Source: Piedraia hortae CBS 480.64 (taxonomy: Eukaryota). From it: a stretch of DNA of 64,000 bases. Position 1 is the first letter of the stretch, and every line of letters begins with the position of its first letter. The notes beneath the pieces are model-generated. The model worked only from the letters and a program-made list of their open reading frames with translations. It was not told the origin of the DNA and did no database searches. Positions 14,522-21,156 of this stretch are shown here, piece by piece. A program made the translations under genes and the position numbers. The stretch lies in NCBI GenBank assembly GCA_010093745.1, contig MU005960.1, forward strand, positions 1 through 64,000. The letters are read 5' to 3'.

Positions 14522-15489
14522 ATGGTATGTCCCGCAGAACTCGCTCTACGCTCTGCTGCTGACCCTCCAGACGTCAATAGGCACAGGCTATGATCTACAA
14601 AACTCCGTCTTCTCACCCGATGGCCGCAATTTCCAAGTAGAATATGCGGCCAAGGCGGCGGAAAATGGAGGAACGGCGATCGGCATTCGATGCAAAAACG
14701 GCGTGGTGCTTGCGCTGGAAAAGTTGGTGACGAGCAAGCTGGCCAAGAAGGGCGCCAATAAACAGATATCGACGGTTGACAGGAACATTGGAGCGGTCAG
14801 TGACGGTCGTTCCCACGGTTAGACAAGGCTAACGGGGCGTCTAGGTTTCGTCGGGACTGCTGCCCGACGGCAGGCATTTGGCATCGAGAGCGCGCGACGA
14901 AGCTGCTAGCTGGCGCAGCACCTACAAAGCCCCAATCCCCGTCGCTTCTCTTGCCGACCGCATGGGCACCTACGTCCAGGCACACACTCGCTTCAACTCG
15001 GTGCGACCGTTTGGCGTTACTTTGCTCGTTGGGGGATGGGATGCGGAGACAGACATTGACGTCGATGGAGCTGTAGGCGCGGGGCCATCGGTGGGTGCTG
15101 GCGGTCGGGCAAAGGGCGCCAAACATGGTGGTCCCTATCTGTACATGATTGAGCCGTCGGGAAACTGCACCGGCTGGCTCGCTACGGCAACGGGGAAGGG
15201 CAGACAGGCGGCCAAGGCCGAGTTGGAGAAGCTGCAGCTGGACGCCAATGAGGACGACTGCATTACGTTGGAAGAAGGTGTCAAGGAGGCAGCGCGCATC
15301 ATCCACGTGGCCCATGAGGACAACAAGGACAAGGAATTTGAGCTGGAGATGACATGGGTCAGCGCCGTCAGCGGCCCAACCAAAGGGCGACATGAACCAG
15401 TGCCCAAAACCATTTTGGATGAGGCCGAGAGGCTCGCCAAGAAGGCTCTTGACGGGGACGACGATGAAGACGGAAAAATGGACGAATAG
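14522..15489 (+). CDS. PRE10: 20S proteasome subunit alpha-7; exons 14522-14524, 14571-14795 and 14845-15489
   Basis: Signature [25 protein letters not shown] plus [14 protein letters not shown]. Introns are GTATGT..CTGAC..CAG and GTCAGT..CTAAC..TAG. Confidence 0.95.
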
Positions 15490-15843: not shown

Positions 15844-17898
15844 ATGCGTTTCTTTTCTGTTGCAGCGGTGACGGCGGCCGTTCGCCTTGTCCAGGCCGTC
15901 AACACTGGCTTCAACTATGGAGCGATCATGTCCGATGGCTCGGCCAAGTCGCAGGCCGAGTTTGAGGCCGAGTTCAATCGAGCAAAGAGCCTCCAAGGCA
16001 CCGATGGCATATTCACCTCTGCCCGGATCTACACTACCATCCAGGCCGGTACGCCAAACACGCCCATTAGTGCCATTCCAGCGGCAATCAAGACAAAAAC
16101 ATCTCTGCTGCTAGGGCTCTGGGCATCTGCCGGCCCAGAAGTGTATGCCAACGAGCTCATTGCTCTCAAGGCAGCCATTTCCCAGTATGGCTCTGCCTTT
16201 ACCGATCTCGTTGTTGGCATCAGTGTTGGCTCAGAAGATCTCTATCGGATCAGTCCCACGGGCATTGAGAACCACAGTGGTGTCGGAATCGGTCCAGATG
16301 TCCTCGTCAAGTATATTCAACAGCTCCGATCAACGGTCAAAGGCACGGCGCTTGCCAAGGCACCGGTGGGACATGTCGACACTTGGACGGCTTGGATCAA
16401 CGGCACCAACTCTGCTGTTGTGGATGCCCTGGACTGGGTCGGCATGGACACGTATCCCTACTTCCAAACTACCATGGAGAATTCCATTGAGACTGCGAAT
16501 CACACCTTCTTCGCCGCTTACGATGTCACCATCCACTCTGCCAAGGGAAAGCCAGTGTGGGTCACCGAGACTGGATGGCCCGTTTCAGGCCCCAAGGAGA
16601 ATTTGGCAGAAGCGTCGGCCAAGAATGCTGAGAAGTACTGGTATGACGTTGCTTGCACGATCGTTGGAAATGTCAATACCTGGTGGTACACCCTGCGTGA
16701 TGCTGAGCCAACCACTCCCAACCCGTCGTTCGGTATCGTTCCATCGGACCTCAATGCTGGGCCTCTTTACAACCTAAGTTGCCACCACAGCTCGACTTCG
16801 GCAACCCACTCCCAGTCTGCTTCGGCAACCCACTCCCAGTCTGCTTCGGCAACCCACTCCAAGTCTGCTTCGAACACGGTGTCCGTTGCCGAAGTTGCAA
16901 AGCCTATGTCTATTCACCATAGCACTGTCAAACAAGGAAAATCTCTGACGGCATCTAACCAGGGTGGAAAGGCCACTGCGGCTGGATATGGCAAACCTGT
17001 CGACCACTCTGGCTCTACCCAGAATGCCAAGGCTACTGCAGAAGCCACTGCTGCGGACCATGGCAAACCTGCCGAGGGCTCAAATGCCAAACCCACGGCT
17101 GCTGCCCCCGATGCTGCTGGCCCGGCTACACACATGGTTACAGAGGTTGCAACTGATGTAACCACATATTGCCCCGAGGAACAGACGGCACAAACGGCAC
17201 AAACGCATGCCAGCTCACCACAAGCTGCCGCGTCGGTCAAACACGATGCCCCAGCTGCGCCCGCGGCTCCTGCGCCTTCCGAGAACGAAGCCCCCAAACC
17301 TCCTGCGCCTTCTGGAAACTATGCCCCAAAGTCTCCTGCAGCAGCCGTACAGCCGCCTCCAGCCGCCGAGAGCAACGGTCAGCCATTCTATGGTCATGGT
17401 GGCAAGTCTTGTCCAGCCAGTTTGGAAGGTGAACATCAGATTCCACACCTCATCGTTCCTGTTAGCCCTACGGAGCCCAATAGGGTCTGCGGCAAGTCTT
17501 ACAACGTCACCATCAACTCGCATAGGAACACTCTACTCAACTTTGACATTCCCGCCTCGTACGAGGGAAAGACGTGCTCACTAGTAATGCTCTTGCCAGA
17601 GCATTCTCAATTACAGACGTCGGCGTATACGTTCAACAACAAAGGTGGCATCACGGTCAATTATCTGACTCACGCCGTTACAGAAAAGGTCACATACAAC
17701 TCCATGCCCAAGGACAGCCACAATGGAGTAGGCAAGGTGGAGAGTGTGAGAGCAGGAGGCAAATGGGTACTTACAAGCTCTCCCTGCAAGGCTGGCACGA
17801 CGCAATGCTTTGAACTTGTCGGAACTGGAGGATTGGAACTGGAGTTTTTCCAGGACTACAACCCCTCTCCCATCGGAGTGTTTGTCACAGCATGTTAG
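15844..17898 (+). CDS. secreted GH17 beta-1,3-glucanase/transglucosylase (EglC-like) with Ser/Ala/Pro-rich linker and But2-like C-terminal domain
   Basis: Signal peptide, [13 protein letters not shown] and WVTETGWP catalytic-Glu motifs. The C-terminus carries a PHLIVPV...FDIP...C.L domain. Confidence 0.9.
16797..16873 (+). repeat. 24-bp coding tandem repeat x3 (SATHSQSA)
   Basis: TTCGGCAACCCACTCCCAGTCTGC repeated in the GH17 linker. Confidence 0.9.
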
Positions 17899-18196
17899 GT
17901 AGCTTAAGTAGGCATCAAATGTAGCAGATCCTAGTAAGCACAACTGTGAAATTTCTCTCAACAGCTGATAATCAGTGACAAGTGCGGGGTAAGCTGAAAG
18001 GAATGACCAAAGGTGTAAGAATGAGCTGCGCGGCAGGTAAACTATGTACAAGCTATGATTGTGGGGCGAATGAAAACTCTGCCAAAGTGGCGTTCTCAAC
18101 GTCTGTCAACATTTCCGCGAGTCATCCCTCCGCATCTTCAACGACACCTCAATCTGCAGATCCACCCATGCTAATATTGTCCTCTACACACACATC

Positions 18197-18427
18197 ACGT
18201 TGTTCGTAGACATAGTAAAGGTCTTTTCCTGCCCCAACCCAGCACGTTTGGCAGACCTACGCGCACTTGAAGGCTTCGGTTCCGGGTTGGATCCACAGCC
18301 CTCTGCTAAACAAGAACCCCAGCTGCCGCATAATCGCGCCTTCGGAGCGCTTCCCTTGACCGGGGAGGGCTCTGCTTGCCGCCCAAGTCTCGCACGTCTA
18401 ACATTCGTCTCGTTCAAGCCTCCCTAA
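18197..18427 (+). promoter_or_regulatory. non-AUG upstream ORF in the ODC leader (uCC-type), ending ...FKPP*
   Basis: In-frame ACG (18197) and TTG (18200), each with A at -3. About 75 codons, ending CCT CCC TAA 11 nt before the ODC ATG. There is no ATG in 18171-18438. Confidence 0.8.
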
Positions 18428-18438
18428 CGCGGAGGCAA

Positions 18439-19737
18439 ATGGCAGATTCGCTCTTGACCGTTGATACGGAACATGGCAGGGTGAAAGACCAGGCCAAAGA
18501 GATGGTATGGGCGGCTCTTCACCGCACCATCCGTGCCGTTGACGTTCAAACCTGTGAGGCCGGCGAGGAGGACGCCTTTTTCGTAGCGGACCTCGGCCAT
18601 GTCTACCGCCAGCACCGCCGTTGGCAGCAGCATCTGGCTCGCGTCACGCCGCATTACGCCGTCAAGTGCAACCCCGACCCGCAGGTTCTCCAACTATTAG
18701 CTGCTCTGGGCGCCGGCTTTGACTGCGCCAGCAAGGCGGAGATTGAACAAGTGCTGGCCATGGGCGTGGACGCCTCGCGCATCATCTACGCGCAGCCGTG
18801 CAAGACGCGCAGCTACCTCGGCTACACGGCTGCTCACAACGTGCGACAGATGACGTTTGACAACGCCGATGAGCTTTACAAGATCAAAGCCGTGGCGCCC
18901 GATGCCCAGCTGTACCTGCGCATCCTGACCGACGACTCGGCCAGTCTCTGTCGGCTGAGCCAGAAATTCGGCGCCGCCGTGGACCAGGTACCCGCGCTGC
19001 TGCAACTAGCCAAGAATCTTTCACTCGACCTCGTCGGCGTCGCCTTTCACGTTGGATCCGGCGCATCTGATCCAGCTGCCTTCACCCAAGCCGTCATTGA
19101 TGCGCGCTCCGCCTTCGACCAGGCCGCTCACCTAGGCCTGCATCTCACGACCCTGGACGTCGGCGGCGGCTTCGTCTCCGAAACCTTTGACACAATGGCC
19201 GACAATCTCAGCGCAGCACTAGACAAGTACTTCCCCCCCTCAATCCGCATCATTGCCGAACCCGGACGCTTCTACACCAGCGCAGCATTCACTCTAGCCT
19301 GCAACGTAATCGCCCGCCGCTCCGTCTCATCCGAAAGCGCAATGCTCTACCTCAACGACGGCGTCTACGGCAACTTCTCCTGCATCATGTTCGACCACCA
19401 GCAACCCATCCCACGCATCCTCTCAACCCGTCGCATGCCCCACGGCCTCCGTTGTCCTCGCTCATCCCCAGATTCAGGCTACGTCTCCGCTGAAGACGAA
19501 TCCAGCGACACCGGAACAGCAATCCACTACTCCATCTGGGGTCCCACCTGCGATGGAATAGACTGTATCTCGATTCGCTGGCTCTCGTCTGCGACCGTTG
19601 AGGTGGGTGATTGGCTCTACTTCACCGATATGGGTGCCTACACGAAATGCTCGGCGACGAAGTTTAACGGGTTTACGAATAAACATCGGACGGTGTATGT
19701 GTGTAGTGAGCCCGCGGCGAGGGAGTTGGTGGGGTAG
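18439..19737 (+). CDS. SPE1: ornithine decarboxylase
   Basis: PHYAVKCN (PLP lysine), FDCASK, FHVGSG, DVGGGF, EPGR and WGPTCDGID motifs. First ATG is at 18439. Confidence 0.95.
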   Translation: MADSLLTVDTEHGRVKDQAKEMVWAALHRTIRAVDVQTCEAGEEDAFFVADLGHVYRQHRRWQQHLARVTPHYAVKCNPDPQVLQLLAALGAGFDCASKAEIEQVLAMGVDASRIIYAQPCKTRSYLGYTAAHNVRQMTFDNADELYKIKAVAPDAQLYLRILTDDSASLCRLSQKFGAAVDQVPALLQLAKNLSLDLVGVAFHVGSGASDPAAFTQAVIDARSAFDQAAHLGLHLTTLDVGGGFVSETFDTMADNLSAALDKYFPPSIRIIAEPGRFYTSAAFTLACNVIARRSVSSESAMLYLNDGVYGNFSCIMFDHQQPIPRILSTRRMPHGLRCPRSSPDSGYVSAEDESSDTGTAIHYSIWGPTCDGIDCISIRWLSSATVEVGDWLYFTDMGAYTKCSATKFNGFTNKHRTVYVCSEPAARELVG

Positions 19738-21156
19738 GTTTATATAGTAAAAGCTTTTGGTTGATTGCGCTTTGGATATCTATATGATAGAAGGGGTAGT
19801 GGTCTTCGTGAACCTGATTGCTACACGAGATGGGAGGAGGTGGGTGATAAATGGGAAGCTTCCATAGATTGATCCAATCTGGTGTAGAGCTCGGCTACGT
19901 AATGGTAAACCGCATTCGTTAGCTAGAGGGAGATATGGGATTAGACTACGTGTTTTCAAACGTTTTTTTCGTCGAGAAGTAACGCTTTCTTTGATGCCTG
20001 TTCAGACGAGCGGATGACTCTCTCGTAGGCCTCTCGCAGAGTTGTTTGATCTTGGGCTCTCGATGCATGAAACATCAACGGCGAGATGGAAAAAGCCCCT
20101 CGGACATATCCTCCCTTTGGGGAATACAAGGAGATTGGAACAGGACAGGTAATGTGGCGGAAGGCATGTCCGAGCCTGGTTTCCAGTGATAGTGGGATGA
20201 GACGCTGAACATACTCATTCTGCATCTCTAGCTGGGTTTCCGCGTTGAGAAAGTTGTGGTAGGAAGGTGGGGCGAATTAAGCGTTGGAAGCTGTGTTTAT
20301 ATTATCTTCTCCGTGGATGAGACTGATTAGCGGAGGACCTACGCCGCGGAATTGGTCTTGGCGGTGTTTGGTTGGACGTGTTTGGGAGGGGTGTGGGCTG
20401 ACATGGTTCGTGGATGCAGGATTTGCCTTCGGTGATAAGAATAGGTGATGGATAGGCTCCTGTAAACATTCTCTTGGGGGAGCATAGAGCGGTGGAGGCT
20501 AGGCTGCGGCATGCTACGTCATTCACGAAACATGTGTGGATGGGAGGATTCGCTAGATCCGGTGTATGAAATTTCTGCTTAGTTGCGCGCTAGATGCGGT
20601 ACCATAATTAGCTTGCAGTGAAGAGTGGTCGAACTCGGACAGTATCATGAAACCCACAAGCGACAAAGTGTGTTCTGATACGGTTGAATTGTATTGTTCG
20701 TATCTTCTGCCGATTTTCTAGGGCACAATACGTCAAGGGGCTCATTGTGTATATGTAGGATAACCAAACGACTGGTAAAAGTCCCAGAGAGCAGCTGGCG
20801 TGGTGGCTGAATTGTAGTGGTGTCTTTAAGCTCCCCAAGTTCTATTTTGGTTGTTCAAGAGCGCGTTGCTGGCAATGCACAAAAATATCTCTCCATAGAT
20901 TTGCCACTGCATGGTTGAGAAAGGTATTCTTGTTCATAGCGTAAAACAAGTATTCACGATGCTCGTGTGCACCGTCCGTCTACCTGCGTTTTCGCTACAT
21001 CTTGGCTGCGAAATTACATGCAGGCATGCTGATCCGTAACTATTCCGGAAGGTTCATCTTTCAAGAAGAGAGGTGTTGAGGGCGCGGGTATATTTATTTG
21101 GATTTAATGATCGGGGGCAGTATAATATCAAAGTAGGTCATTACATGGGAAAAAGA

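What the first reader, a model, noticed from the sequence alone, without database searches (positions are those of the whole stretch)
18197..18438. Non-AUG uORF ending Pro-Pro-stop upstream of ornithine decarboxylase: candidate polyamine-sensing switch
Seen: an AUG-free leader with adjacent ACG/TTG codons in good context (plus ATA at 18212) opens a ~75-codon frame, (T)LFVDIVKVFSCPNP...SLARLTFVSFKPP*, ending 11 nt before the ODC ATG. Established: ODC/antizyme-inhibitor homologs in animals and filamentous fungi carry non-AUG upstream conserved coding regions with proline-rich ends. In AZIN1, polyamines inhibit eIF5A, ribosomes stall and queue, and main-ORF translation is repressed. Inference: this is the fungal element, which gene callers miss.
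Basis: partly seen in the sequence, partly recalled or inferred. Interest (0 to 1): 0.7.

Follow-up and report, generated by a model that had tools for sequence, protein, structure and literature searches.

The report
Fungal ODC non-AUG upstream reading frame
The short hidden reading frame in front of this fungus's ornithine decarboxylase gene is real and belongs to a known, probably polyamine-sensing kind of switch; most related fungi also carry a second, overlapping hidden frame with three prolines, which this species has lost.

Summary
Confirmed. Frame 18197/18200-18427 is the Pezizomycotina ODC 'uCC', a non-AUG uORF known from sequence since 2008. A profile of 48 related leaders hits it at E=6.7e-12 (next best 0.34), and 76 of 78 related ODC loci carry the same Pro-Pro-stop frame. 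An RNA-like contig covers the leader unspliced.

Corrections: the leader is not surely AUG-free (ATG 18168 lies inside the contig); ODC may start at 18502; the 'QLPH' and 'LP..GEE' conservation is nucleotide-level (an invariant 13-mer and a hairpin), and only F-K/R-P-P-stop is clearly peptide-level.

Not found in the papers I could read: 39 of 48 relatives, from three fungal classes, have two overlapping non-AUG uORFs. An ACG-started frame encodes N-x-x-PPP exactly 41 nt after the uCC's own near-cognate start (TTG/ATT/ATC/CTG/GTG). This window has lost that first frame.

Likely mechanism, inferred and untested: polyamines inhibit eIF5A, ribosomes stall at PP-stop and queue, and ODC is repressed; in relatives a PPP pause may prime the uCC start. 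The 2008 paper was unavailable, so the two-frame layout may be known. The scan noted similar, unverified ODC leaders in other fungi.

The parts
18121..19960 (+). Stretch covered by one ungapped contig of a run guessed to be RNA: leader, ODC ORF and 3' region; no intron in the leader
   Evidence: record 6; 0 other letters, 0 gaps. RNA status is a guess by the tool; a poly(A) loose end at 17940 and no cover at 17941-18120 fit RNA.
18154..18174 (+). CTG (A at -3) opening a 6-codon frame (LQIHPC*), 271 nt before the uCC stop, at the distance and in the frame of the relatives' ACG uORF1; possible relic
   Evidence: positional only, no sequence similarity
18168..18209 (+). AUG uORF, 13 codons (MLILSSTHTSRCS*), weak context (C-3), overlapping the uCC start out of frame; not conserved in two-uORF relatives
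18175..18270 (+). Open stretch in the relatives' uORF1 frame (..HHVVRRHSKGLFLPQPS..T*), with PQP where PPP would be and no usable start; eroded uORF1 at best
   Evidence: uORF1 HMM scores it -0.6 bits, i.e. not detectable
18197..18202 (+). ACG-TTG near-cognate start pair. TTG 18200 is the best match to the relatives' start profile (5.1 bits; relatives 5.7-15.3) and lies 75 codons from the stop (relatives 74-86). In-frame rivals: ATT 18176, ACG 18197, ATA 18212
18200..18427 (+). uCC: non-AUG uORF of 75 codons ending F-K-P-P-TAA
   Evidence: E=6.7e-12; 9 of 9 columns conserved at 90% or more are matched; DNA profile E=6.4e-11 over 18295-18427
18320..18332 (+). CAGCTGCCGCATA, nearly invariant including wobble bases; reads QLPH in the uCC frame and A-A-A-stop in the -1 frame; role unexplained
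18344..18373 (+). Conserved RNA hairpin inside the uCC (GGAGC/CTTCCC..GGGGAG/GCTCT here)
18413..18427 (+). F-K-P-P-stop, presumed stall site; Pro codons vary freely at the wobble base; stop is TAA in 50 of 51 leaders
18439..19737 (+). Ornithine decarboxylase ORF, 432 aa from ATG 18439 or 411 aa from ATG 18502; one match in the genome

Best explanation
The frame 18200-18427 is this fungus's copy of the Pezizomycotina ODC uCC, a translated, non-AUG-started inhibitory uORF kept by selection. Shown here: the frame, its C-terminus and its position are conserved across three fungal classes; it lies in the transcribed leader; related leaders are purged of AUG. Inferred by analogy to AZIN1: at low polyamine most scanning ribosomes pass the weak TTG/ACG and make ODC. 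At high polyamine eIF5A works poorly, the few ribosomes on the uCC stall at F-K-P-P-stop and block scanning, and the queue behind them raises initiation at the weak start, so ODC synthesis falls (possibly with mRNA decay). The window carries a shortened form: it keeps the uCC, the invariant 13-mer and the internal hairpin, but has lost the ACG-started PPP uORF and the 5' hairpin found in most relatives, and has an AUG mini-uORF over the uCC start instead.
For: PP-stop frame in 76 of 78 related loci with a main ATG; the 2 misses had only 52 and 113 nt of leader. Control region: 1 of 33. HMM E=6.7e-12. The uCC frame has no stop from its start codon to PP-stop in 39 of 39 two-uORF leaders, against stops in 39 and 34 of 39 in the other two frames. 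Last 7 codons: 65% of single-base codon differences are synonymous in the uCC frame, against 12% and 15% in the others (20 dereplicated leaders). 2 ATG in -350..-1 against 213 in -1000..-651 and 194 CAT in the same leader stretch, over 33 leaders. Ungapped RNA-like contig. Literature: a N. crassa leader region holding the uCC represses ODC about 30-fold, about 3-fold of it translational and partly relieved by polyamine depletion (PMC2811004 section 6). AZIN1 stall-and-queue mechanism (PMC9082881 and PMC11550727 passages).
Against: No translation, stalling or polyamine response was measured for any fungal uCC here; the review says the N. crassa uCC was never tested directly. The 5' half of the window's uCC has no detectable similarity to relatives (DNA profile aligns only 18295-18427), and the window's start score (5.1) is just below the relatives' range. 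Much of the C-terminal conservation is nucleotide-level: the QLPH block shows no synonymous excess in the uCC frame (0.21 against 0.25 and 0.41). The RNA evidence is one run whose RNA status is guessed. The window's ODC sits on a long branch (0.94), so relaxed function is possible.
Confidence: 0.75

Rival explanations
1. The uCC is a real translated inhibitory uORF but mostly constitutive, or acts through mRNA decay; the polyamine response of ODC comes from elsewhere (antizyme, transcription).
For: Only about 3-fold of the 30-fold N. crassa repression was translational, and it was only partly relieved by polyamine depletion. Nothing here measures polyamine dependence.
Against: Weak starts are kept instead of AUG in 39 of 41 anchored leaders, which suits a tunable rather than a fixed brake. 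Pro-Pro-stop and PPP are eIF5A-sensitive motif types (general knowledge).
Confidence: 0.12
2. The working element is nucleic acid (the invariant 13-mer as a protein- or DNA-binding site, plus the hairpin); the open frame is secondary.
For: Wobble bases of L, P and H are invariant (CTG 50, CCG 49, CAT 51 of 51) and most variants change the amino acid. Hairpin pairs hold in 98.3% of cells, 0 of 500 shuffles as high, one pair with compensatory change in 12 sequences.
Against: The frame stays open and in phase for 74-86 codons through many indels. The PP codons vary synonymously. The start-codon column covaries so as to stay near-cognate. An RNA or DNA motif explains none of this. The 11-mer is not enriched in the genome (11 hits against 7 for the reversed control).
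Confidence: 0.06
3. In relatives the uCC is one product made from the ACG by a +1 ribosomal frameshift near PPP, antizyme-style. The window would then be a remnant, or a form that no longer needs the shift.
For: The ACG is out of frame with PP-stop by exactly 1 in 38 of 40 leaders. Two leaders (L012, L074) have it in frame, and L012 joins PPP directly to the uCC. That pattern is typical of a fixed frameshift.
Against: No conserved shift site: a slippery CCC-C occurs at Pro1 or Pro2 in only 13 of 41, and the codon before the uORF1 stop varies. The +1 frame is already free of stops from 41 nt before PPP (0 of 40 against 19 of 40 just upstream). That exact position holds a near-cognate codon with a purine at -3.
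Confidence: 0.07

Closest known systems
uCC of Pezizomycotina ODC mRNAs (Ivanov, Loughran and Atkins 2008; seen only through review PMC2811004 section 6)
   Same: Non-AUG uORF in the leader of a Pezizomycotina ODC; two adjacent prolines at the C-terminus; extra conserved positions near the C-terminus; UUG/ACG/AUU-type starts.
   Different: The review gives about 100 codons and one uCC. Here the uCC is 75 codons (74-86 in relatives). In 39 of 48 relatives the ACG belongs to a separate, overlapping PPP frame; the review does not mention this, but the primary paper and its alignments were not available.
Mammalian AZIN1 uCC (AUU start, PPW stall, eIF5A, ribosome queuing; review passages PMC9082881, PMC11550727)
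   Same: Weak start, proline-pair stall motif near the end, upstream of an ODC-family ORF.
   Different: Independent origin according to the review; controls ODC itself, not an antizyme inhibitor; PP directly before the stop; stall site about 75 rather than about 30 codons from the start; no experimental proof here.
S. cerevisiae HOL1 uORF (PS-stop; passage in PMC11550727)
   Same: Polyamine-sensitive stall at termination is the closest model for P-P-stop.
   Different: A different gene (polyamine importer) and a PS-stop motif; from recall, a very short AUG-started uORF.
Plant AdoMetDC tiny/small overlapping uORFs (passage in PMC2811004)
   Same: Two overlapping uORFs in a polyamine-pathway leader; the window's AUG mini-uORF over the uCC start resembles the tiny uORF layout.
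   Different: Both plant uORFs start at AUG; in the fungal relatives both are non-AUG and the first carries PPP.

Membership tests
Pezizomycotina ODC uCC | Lies in the 5' leader of an ODC homolog of a Pezizomycotina fungus | tested here: met
   ODC by Pfam and PDB; nearest named proteins are Dothideomycetes at 63-71% identity; RNA-like contig from 18121
Pezizomycotina ODC uCC | Conserved coding region shared with other Pezizomycotina ODC leaders | tested here: met
   E=6.7e-12; 9 of 9 most conserved columns; 76 of 78 loci. Not compared directly with N. crassa or A. nidulans sequences, which no call supplied.
Pezizomycotina ODC uCC | Two adjacent prolines near the C-terminus | tested here: met
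   FKPP*; synonymous variation of the Pro codons
Pezizomycotina ODC uCC | No in-frame AUG; conserved near-cognate start in good context | tested here: met
   No in-frame ATG in 18074-18427; relatives near-cognate in 39 of 41; window TTG 18200 best profile match. Which codon is used is not shown.
Pezizomycotina ODC uCC | Length about 100 codons (as stated in the review) | tested here: inconclusive
   75 codons here, 74-86 in relatives; 89 in the two leaders with an in-frame ACG
AZIN1-type polyamine/eIF5A queuing uORF | Translated from the non-AUG codon in vivo | not testable with these tools
   No ribosome-profiling data; only contigs of one run
AZIN1-type polyamine/eIF5A queuing uORF | Polyamine- and peptide-dependent stalling that represses the main ORF | not testable with these tools
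   Needs reporters; indirect N. crassa data only
Two-uORF form seen in relatives (ACG-PPP frame plus uCC) | ACG in optimal context opening an N-x-x-PPP frame, 1 nt out of phase with the uCC | tested here: not met
   The window has no such ACG and no PPP; uORF1 HMM -0.6 bits
Antizyme-type +1 frameshift cassette | Conserved shift site at the end of ORF1 | tested here: not met
   Variable Pro codons and variable codon before the uORF1 stop

The most novel reading that the evidence does not exclude
The Pezizomycotina ODC leader is a two-stage ribosome-queuing relay, not a single uORF. An ACG-started uORF1 pauses at PPP when polyamines inhibit eIF5A. That pause sits a fixed 41 nt downstream of a second weak start and parks the next scanning subunit on it. 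This loads the uCC, whose P-P-stop stall then shuts off ODC. Some lineages have dropped the first stage (this window, Aureobasidium, both with an AUG mini-uORF in its place) or fused the two frames (L012). I found no description of this layout in the searches I ran.
Probability: 0.4. Interest if true: 0.72.

Novelty: new member of a known kind. Interest (0 to 1): 0.5.

Why it matters
The element itself is a known kind, but the review I could read says the fungal one was never tested directly. This comparison names the exact codons to test: the uCC start is a position that switches among TTG, ATT, ATC, CTG and GTG while staying near-cognate, and the conserved ACG belongs to a different frame. 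If the PPP-primed relay is right, it is a natural case of one uORF's stall choosing the start of an overlapping uORF, and natural loss and fusion variants, this window among them, serve as ready controls. ODC is the entry enzyme of fungal polyamine synthesis, and gene callers annotate none of these frames.

Tried and rejected
Intron in the leader (branch-like CTAAT 18171 and CTAAC 18398, GTAAAG 18215): rejected; no joint in the RNA-like contig. Relatives with intron-less ODC ORFs (L020, L043, L051, L056, L066, L072) whose kin break at residues 95-111 keep the same 1-nt offset, so splicing does not explain it.

+1 frameshift at PPP: kept only as a minor rival.

A third ORF ending in A-A-A-stop: all 51 leaders read A-A-stop there in the -1 frame, but that frame has stops within 10 codons upstream in 10 of 51 and has no fixed length; rejected as a separately started ORF.

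Long-range pairing partner of the 13-mer: no consistent site in 26 leaders scanned. Rfam at gathering score: 0 matches in 4 loci. Pfam on the uCC peptide: 0. The 11-mer elsewhere in the genome: chance level; the 10 other sites were not examined.

No RNA holder is on record as RNA. Whole-leader folding is unremarkable (z=-1.68, 6 of 100 shuffles as good). The shuffle test of label clustering on the tree was not significant; 21 of 49 leaders were left out of that tree because an intron cut their ORF.

Ivanov 2008 (PMC2481320) and Hoyt 2000 (PMC85492) are not held. Supplement 1 of PMC2811004, part 1 of 2, holds no ODC alignment; part 2 was not read. Paper searches listed no paper on a two-uORF fungal ODC leader; I read passages of only six papers.

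Full report
OBSERVATION. The frame is open from 18074. The downstream ORF is ornithine decarboxylase, with one match in a 16.9-Mb genome. Its nearest named relatives are Dothideomycetes at 63-71% identity, and it sits on a long branch among Capnodiales-type sequences. One public run, guessed to be RNA, gives an ungapped contig over 18121-19960 and a poly(A) end of the upstream gene at 17940. So the leader appears transcribed and unspliced, but it may include ATG 18168, which opens a 13-codon frame in weak context over the ACG/TTG pair. 'AUG-free' is therefore true only of 18171-18438. The first ODC ATG has C at -3, and the public protein starts at ATG 18502.

CONSERVATION. A scan of metagenome contigs with an alignment of 47 fungal ODCs found 557 confirmed stretches, of which the tool kept the best 80. 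78 had a main ATG. 76 of these had a Pro-Pro-stop frame 44-218 nt upstream; the two misses had 52 and 113 nt of leader. A control region had such a site in 1 of 33. After removing duplicates there were 56 related leaders, 48 of them with at least 295 nt before the stop. An HMM from those 48 ranks the window's frame first among 1956 window frames (E=6.7e-12; next 0.34), and the window matches 9 of 9 columns conserved at 90% or more. Related leaders are purged of ATG to about -450 (2 ATG in -350..-1 against 213 in -1000..-651, 33 leaders). Named cluster mates place these loci in Dothideomycetes (Friedmanniomyces, Ramularia, Aureobasidium), Eurotiomycetes (Lithohypha/Exophiala, Elaphomyces) and Sordariomycetes (Microdochium) (class assignment from my own knowledge).

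WHAT IS CONSERVED, AND AT WHAT LEVEL. The last seven codons behave as peptide: 65% of single-base codon differences are synonymous in the uCC frame, against 12% and 15% in the other frames. The stop is TAA in 50 of 51. The QLPH block does not: its wobble bases are fixed (CTG 50, CCG 49, CAT 51 of 51), it shows no synonymous excess, and all 51 leaders read A-A-stop in the -1 frame. I cannot explain this 13-mer. The LP..GEE block coincides with an 8-pair hairpin that pairs in 98.3% of cells over 43 sequences; 0 of 500 shuffles reach this and slid controls give 62-75%, but only one pair shows a change on both sides (12 sequences), and the sequences are related. The window keeps both elements (18320-18332; 18344-18373).

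THE START, AND A SECOND FRAME IN RELATIVES. A frame-blind search found one ACG with purine -3 and G+4 at 259-295 nt before the stop in 40 of 48 relatives. It was 1 nt out of phase with the uCC in 38 and in phase in 2. It opens a uORF1 with N-x-x-P-P-P. 41 of 48 leaders have that anchor; the three Pro codons vary freely at the third base (entropy 1.6-1.9 bits, first two bases invariant), and the frame closes within 13 codons after PPP in 34 of 40. Exactly 41 nt before the first Pro, in the uCC frame, 39 of 41 leaders have a near-cognate codon (TTG 20, ATT 11, ATC 4, CTG 3, GTG 1), with A at -3 in 40 of 41. Shuffling the third base gives a mean of 20, and 0 of 20000 shuffles reach 39 (this ignores relatedness). 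Stops in the uCC frame occur in the 13 codons before that codon in 19 of 40 leaders and in the 13 codons after it in 0 of 40; the third frame gives 12 and 10. After dereplication at 80% identity the counts are 8 and 0 of 20 (Fisher p=0.003), and at 70% they are 5 and 0 of 13 (p=0.04). Leu/Val codons of uORF1 that precede an A use a stop-forming wobble base in 12 of 22 cases before the start and 0 of 17 after it. This favours two separately started, overlapping uORFs over a +1 frameshift, for which no conserved shift site exists (CCC at Pro1 or Pro2 in 13 of 41). A GCCTTTG..CAAAGGC hairpin lies just 5' of the ACG in about 33 of 40 leaders (by eye). Against a simple picture: 7 of 48 relatives lack the PPP anchor, two have the ACG in frame with the uCC (one contig each, so errors are possible), and the fixed 41 nt could reflect a nascent-peptide motif rather than ribosome spacing.

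THE WINDOW'S FORM. The relatives' start profile picks TTG 18200 as the best site in 18121-18320 (5.1 bits, just under the relatives' 5.7-15.3), at 75 codons from the stop against 74-86. L076 has a similar ACG-then-near-cognate pair. ATT 18176, ACG 18197 and ATA 18212 are not excluded. The window has no detectable uORF1 (HMM -0.6 bits) and no 5' hairpin (DNA profile aligns only 18295-18427), while close kin such as L002, L010 and L013 have both; loss in this lineage is the simplest reading. Aureobasidium-type leaders L015 and L019 also lack uORF1 and carry a tiny AUG uORF (MN*) about 220 nt before the stop; none of the two-uORF leaders has an ATG within 320 nt before the stop.

MECHANISM. Shown: a conserved, transcribed, non-AUG, PP-stop uORF. 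From literature: in AZIN1 high polyamines inhibit eIF5A, ribosomes stall at PPW, and queuing raises initiation at the AUU (passages of PMC9082881 and PMC11550727); in N. crassa the leader region holding the uCC represses ODC about 30-fold, about 3-fold translationally, and the uCC was not tested (PMC2811004, section 6 read whole); A-3 and G+4 are the key context bases in Pezizomycotina (passages of PMC5487733). Inferred: leaky scanning makes ODC at low polyamine; stalling at F-K-P-P-stop and queuing repress it at high polyamine (confidence 0.75). In relatives the PPP pause would sit 41-49 nt beyond the uCC start and could hold a trailing scanning subunit over it. That is somewhat more than one ribosome length (about 30 nt, recalled), so the geometry is suggestive only.

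COMPARISON AND NOVELTY. The element meets the sequence criteria of the Pezizomycotina ODC uCC and is filed as a new member of a known kind; it works like AZIN1 only by inference. The review lists putative UUG and ACG starts but one uCC of about 100 codons. Eight paper searches and passages of a frameshifting review (PMC5009743) showed no account of two overlapping non-AUG frames. The primary 2008 paper and its supplements could not be seen and may contain it. PMC13578949 (passages) added nothing. Earlier notes of this scan describe similar, unverified PP-type frames before other fungal ODC genes; none matched this sequence or place.

VERDICT. Real, conserved and of a known kind. Interest 0.5, mostly for the family-level two-uORF layout and the exact tests it makes possible.

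Noticed in passing
window 15844-17898 (+): 684-aa ORF with a weak glycosyl hydrolase family 17 match (27 bits, under the 28.2 cut-off) and a C-terminal But2 domain; three near-identical 24-nt repeats at about 16796-16866; poly(A) at 17940, 42 nt after the stop.
   Followed up: partly
window 18439-18560: The ODC N-terminus is about 30 residues shorter than in close relatives (432 or 411 aa against 445-484), and the ORF has no intron where many genomic relatives break at residues 95-118.
   Followed up: partly
L012:227-427 (contig of a Dissoconium-like cluster): The ACG-PPP frame is fused in frame to the uCC (89 codons) and the internal near-cognate start is absent; either a natural fusion or an assembly error.
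   Followed up: partly
L074 leader (Elaphomyces-like cluster): ACG in frame with the uCC while a PPP remains in the other frame; a TATATAAATA box lies about 15 nt before the 5' hairpin, which may put the hairpin near the cap.
   Followed up: no
L026, L027, L029 leaders: No ACG-PPP frame; TATAAATA about 290 nt before the PP-stop and a shared TTG (A-3, G+4) 183 nt before it, i.e. a shorter 61-codon uCC.
   Followed up: no
L015, L019 leaders (Aureobasidium cluster): Tiny AUG uORF M-N-stop directly before the open uCC frame, with no in-frame near-cognate codon that has a purine at -3; may load the uCC by reinitiation.
   Followed up: no
window 14845-15489 (+): ORF piece that looks like a proteasome alpha subunit (recalled from motifs; no call tested it).
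   Followed up: no
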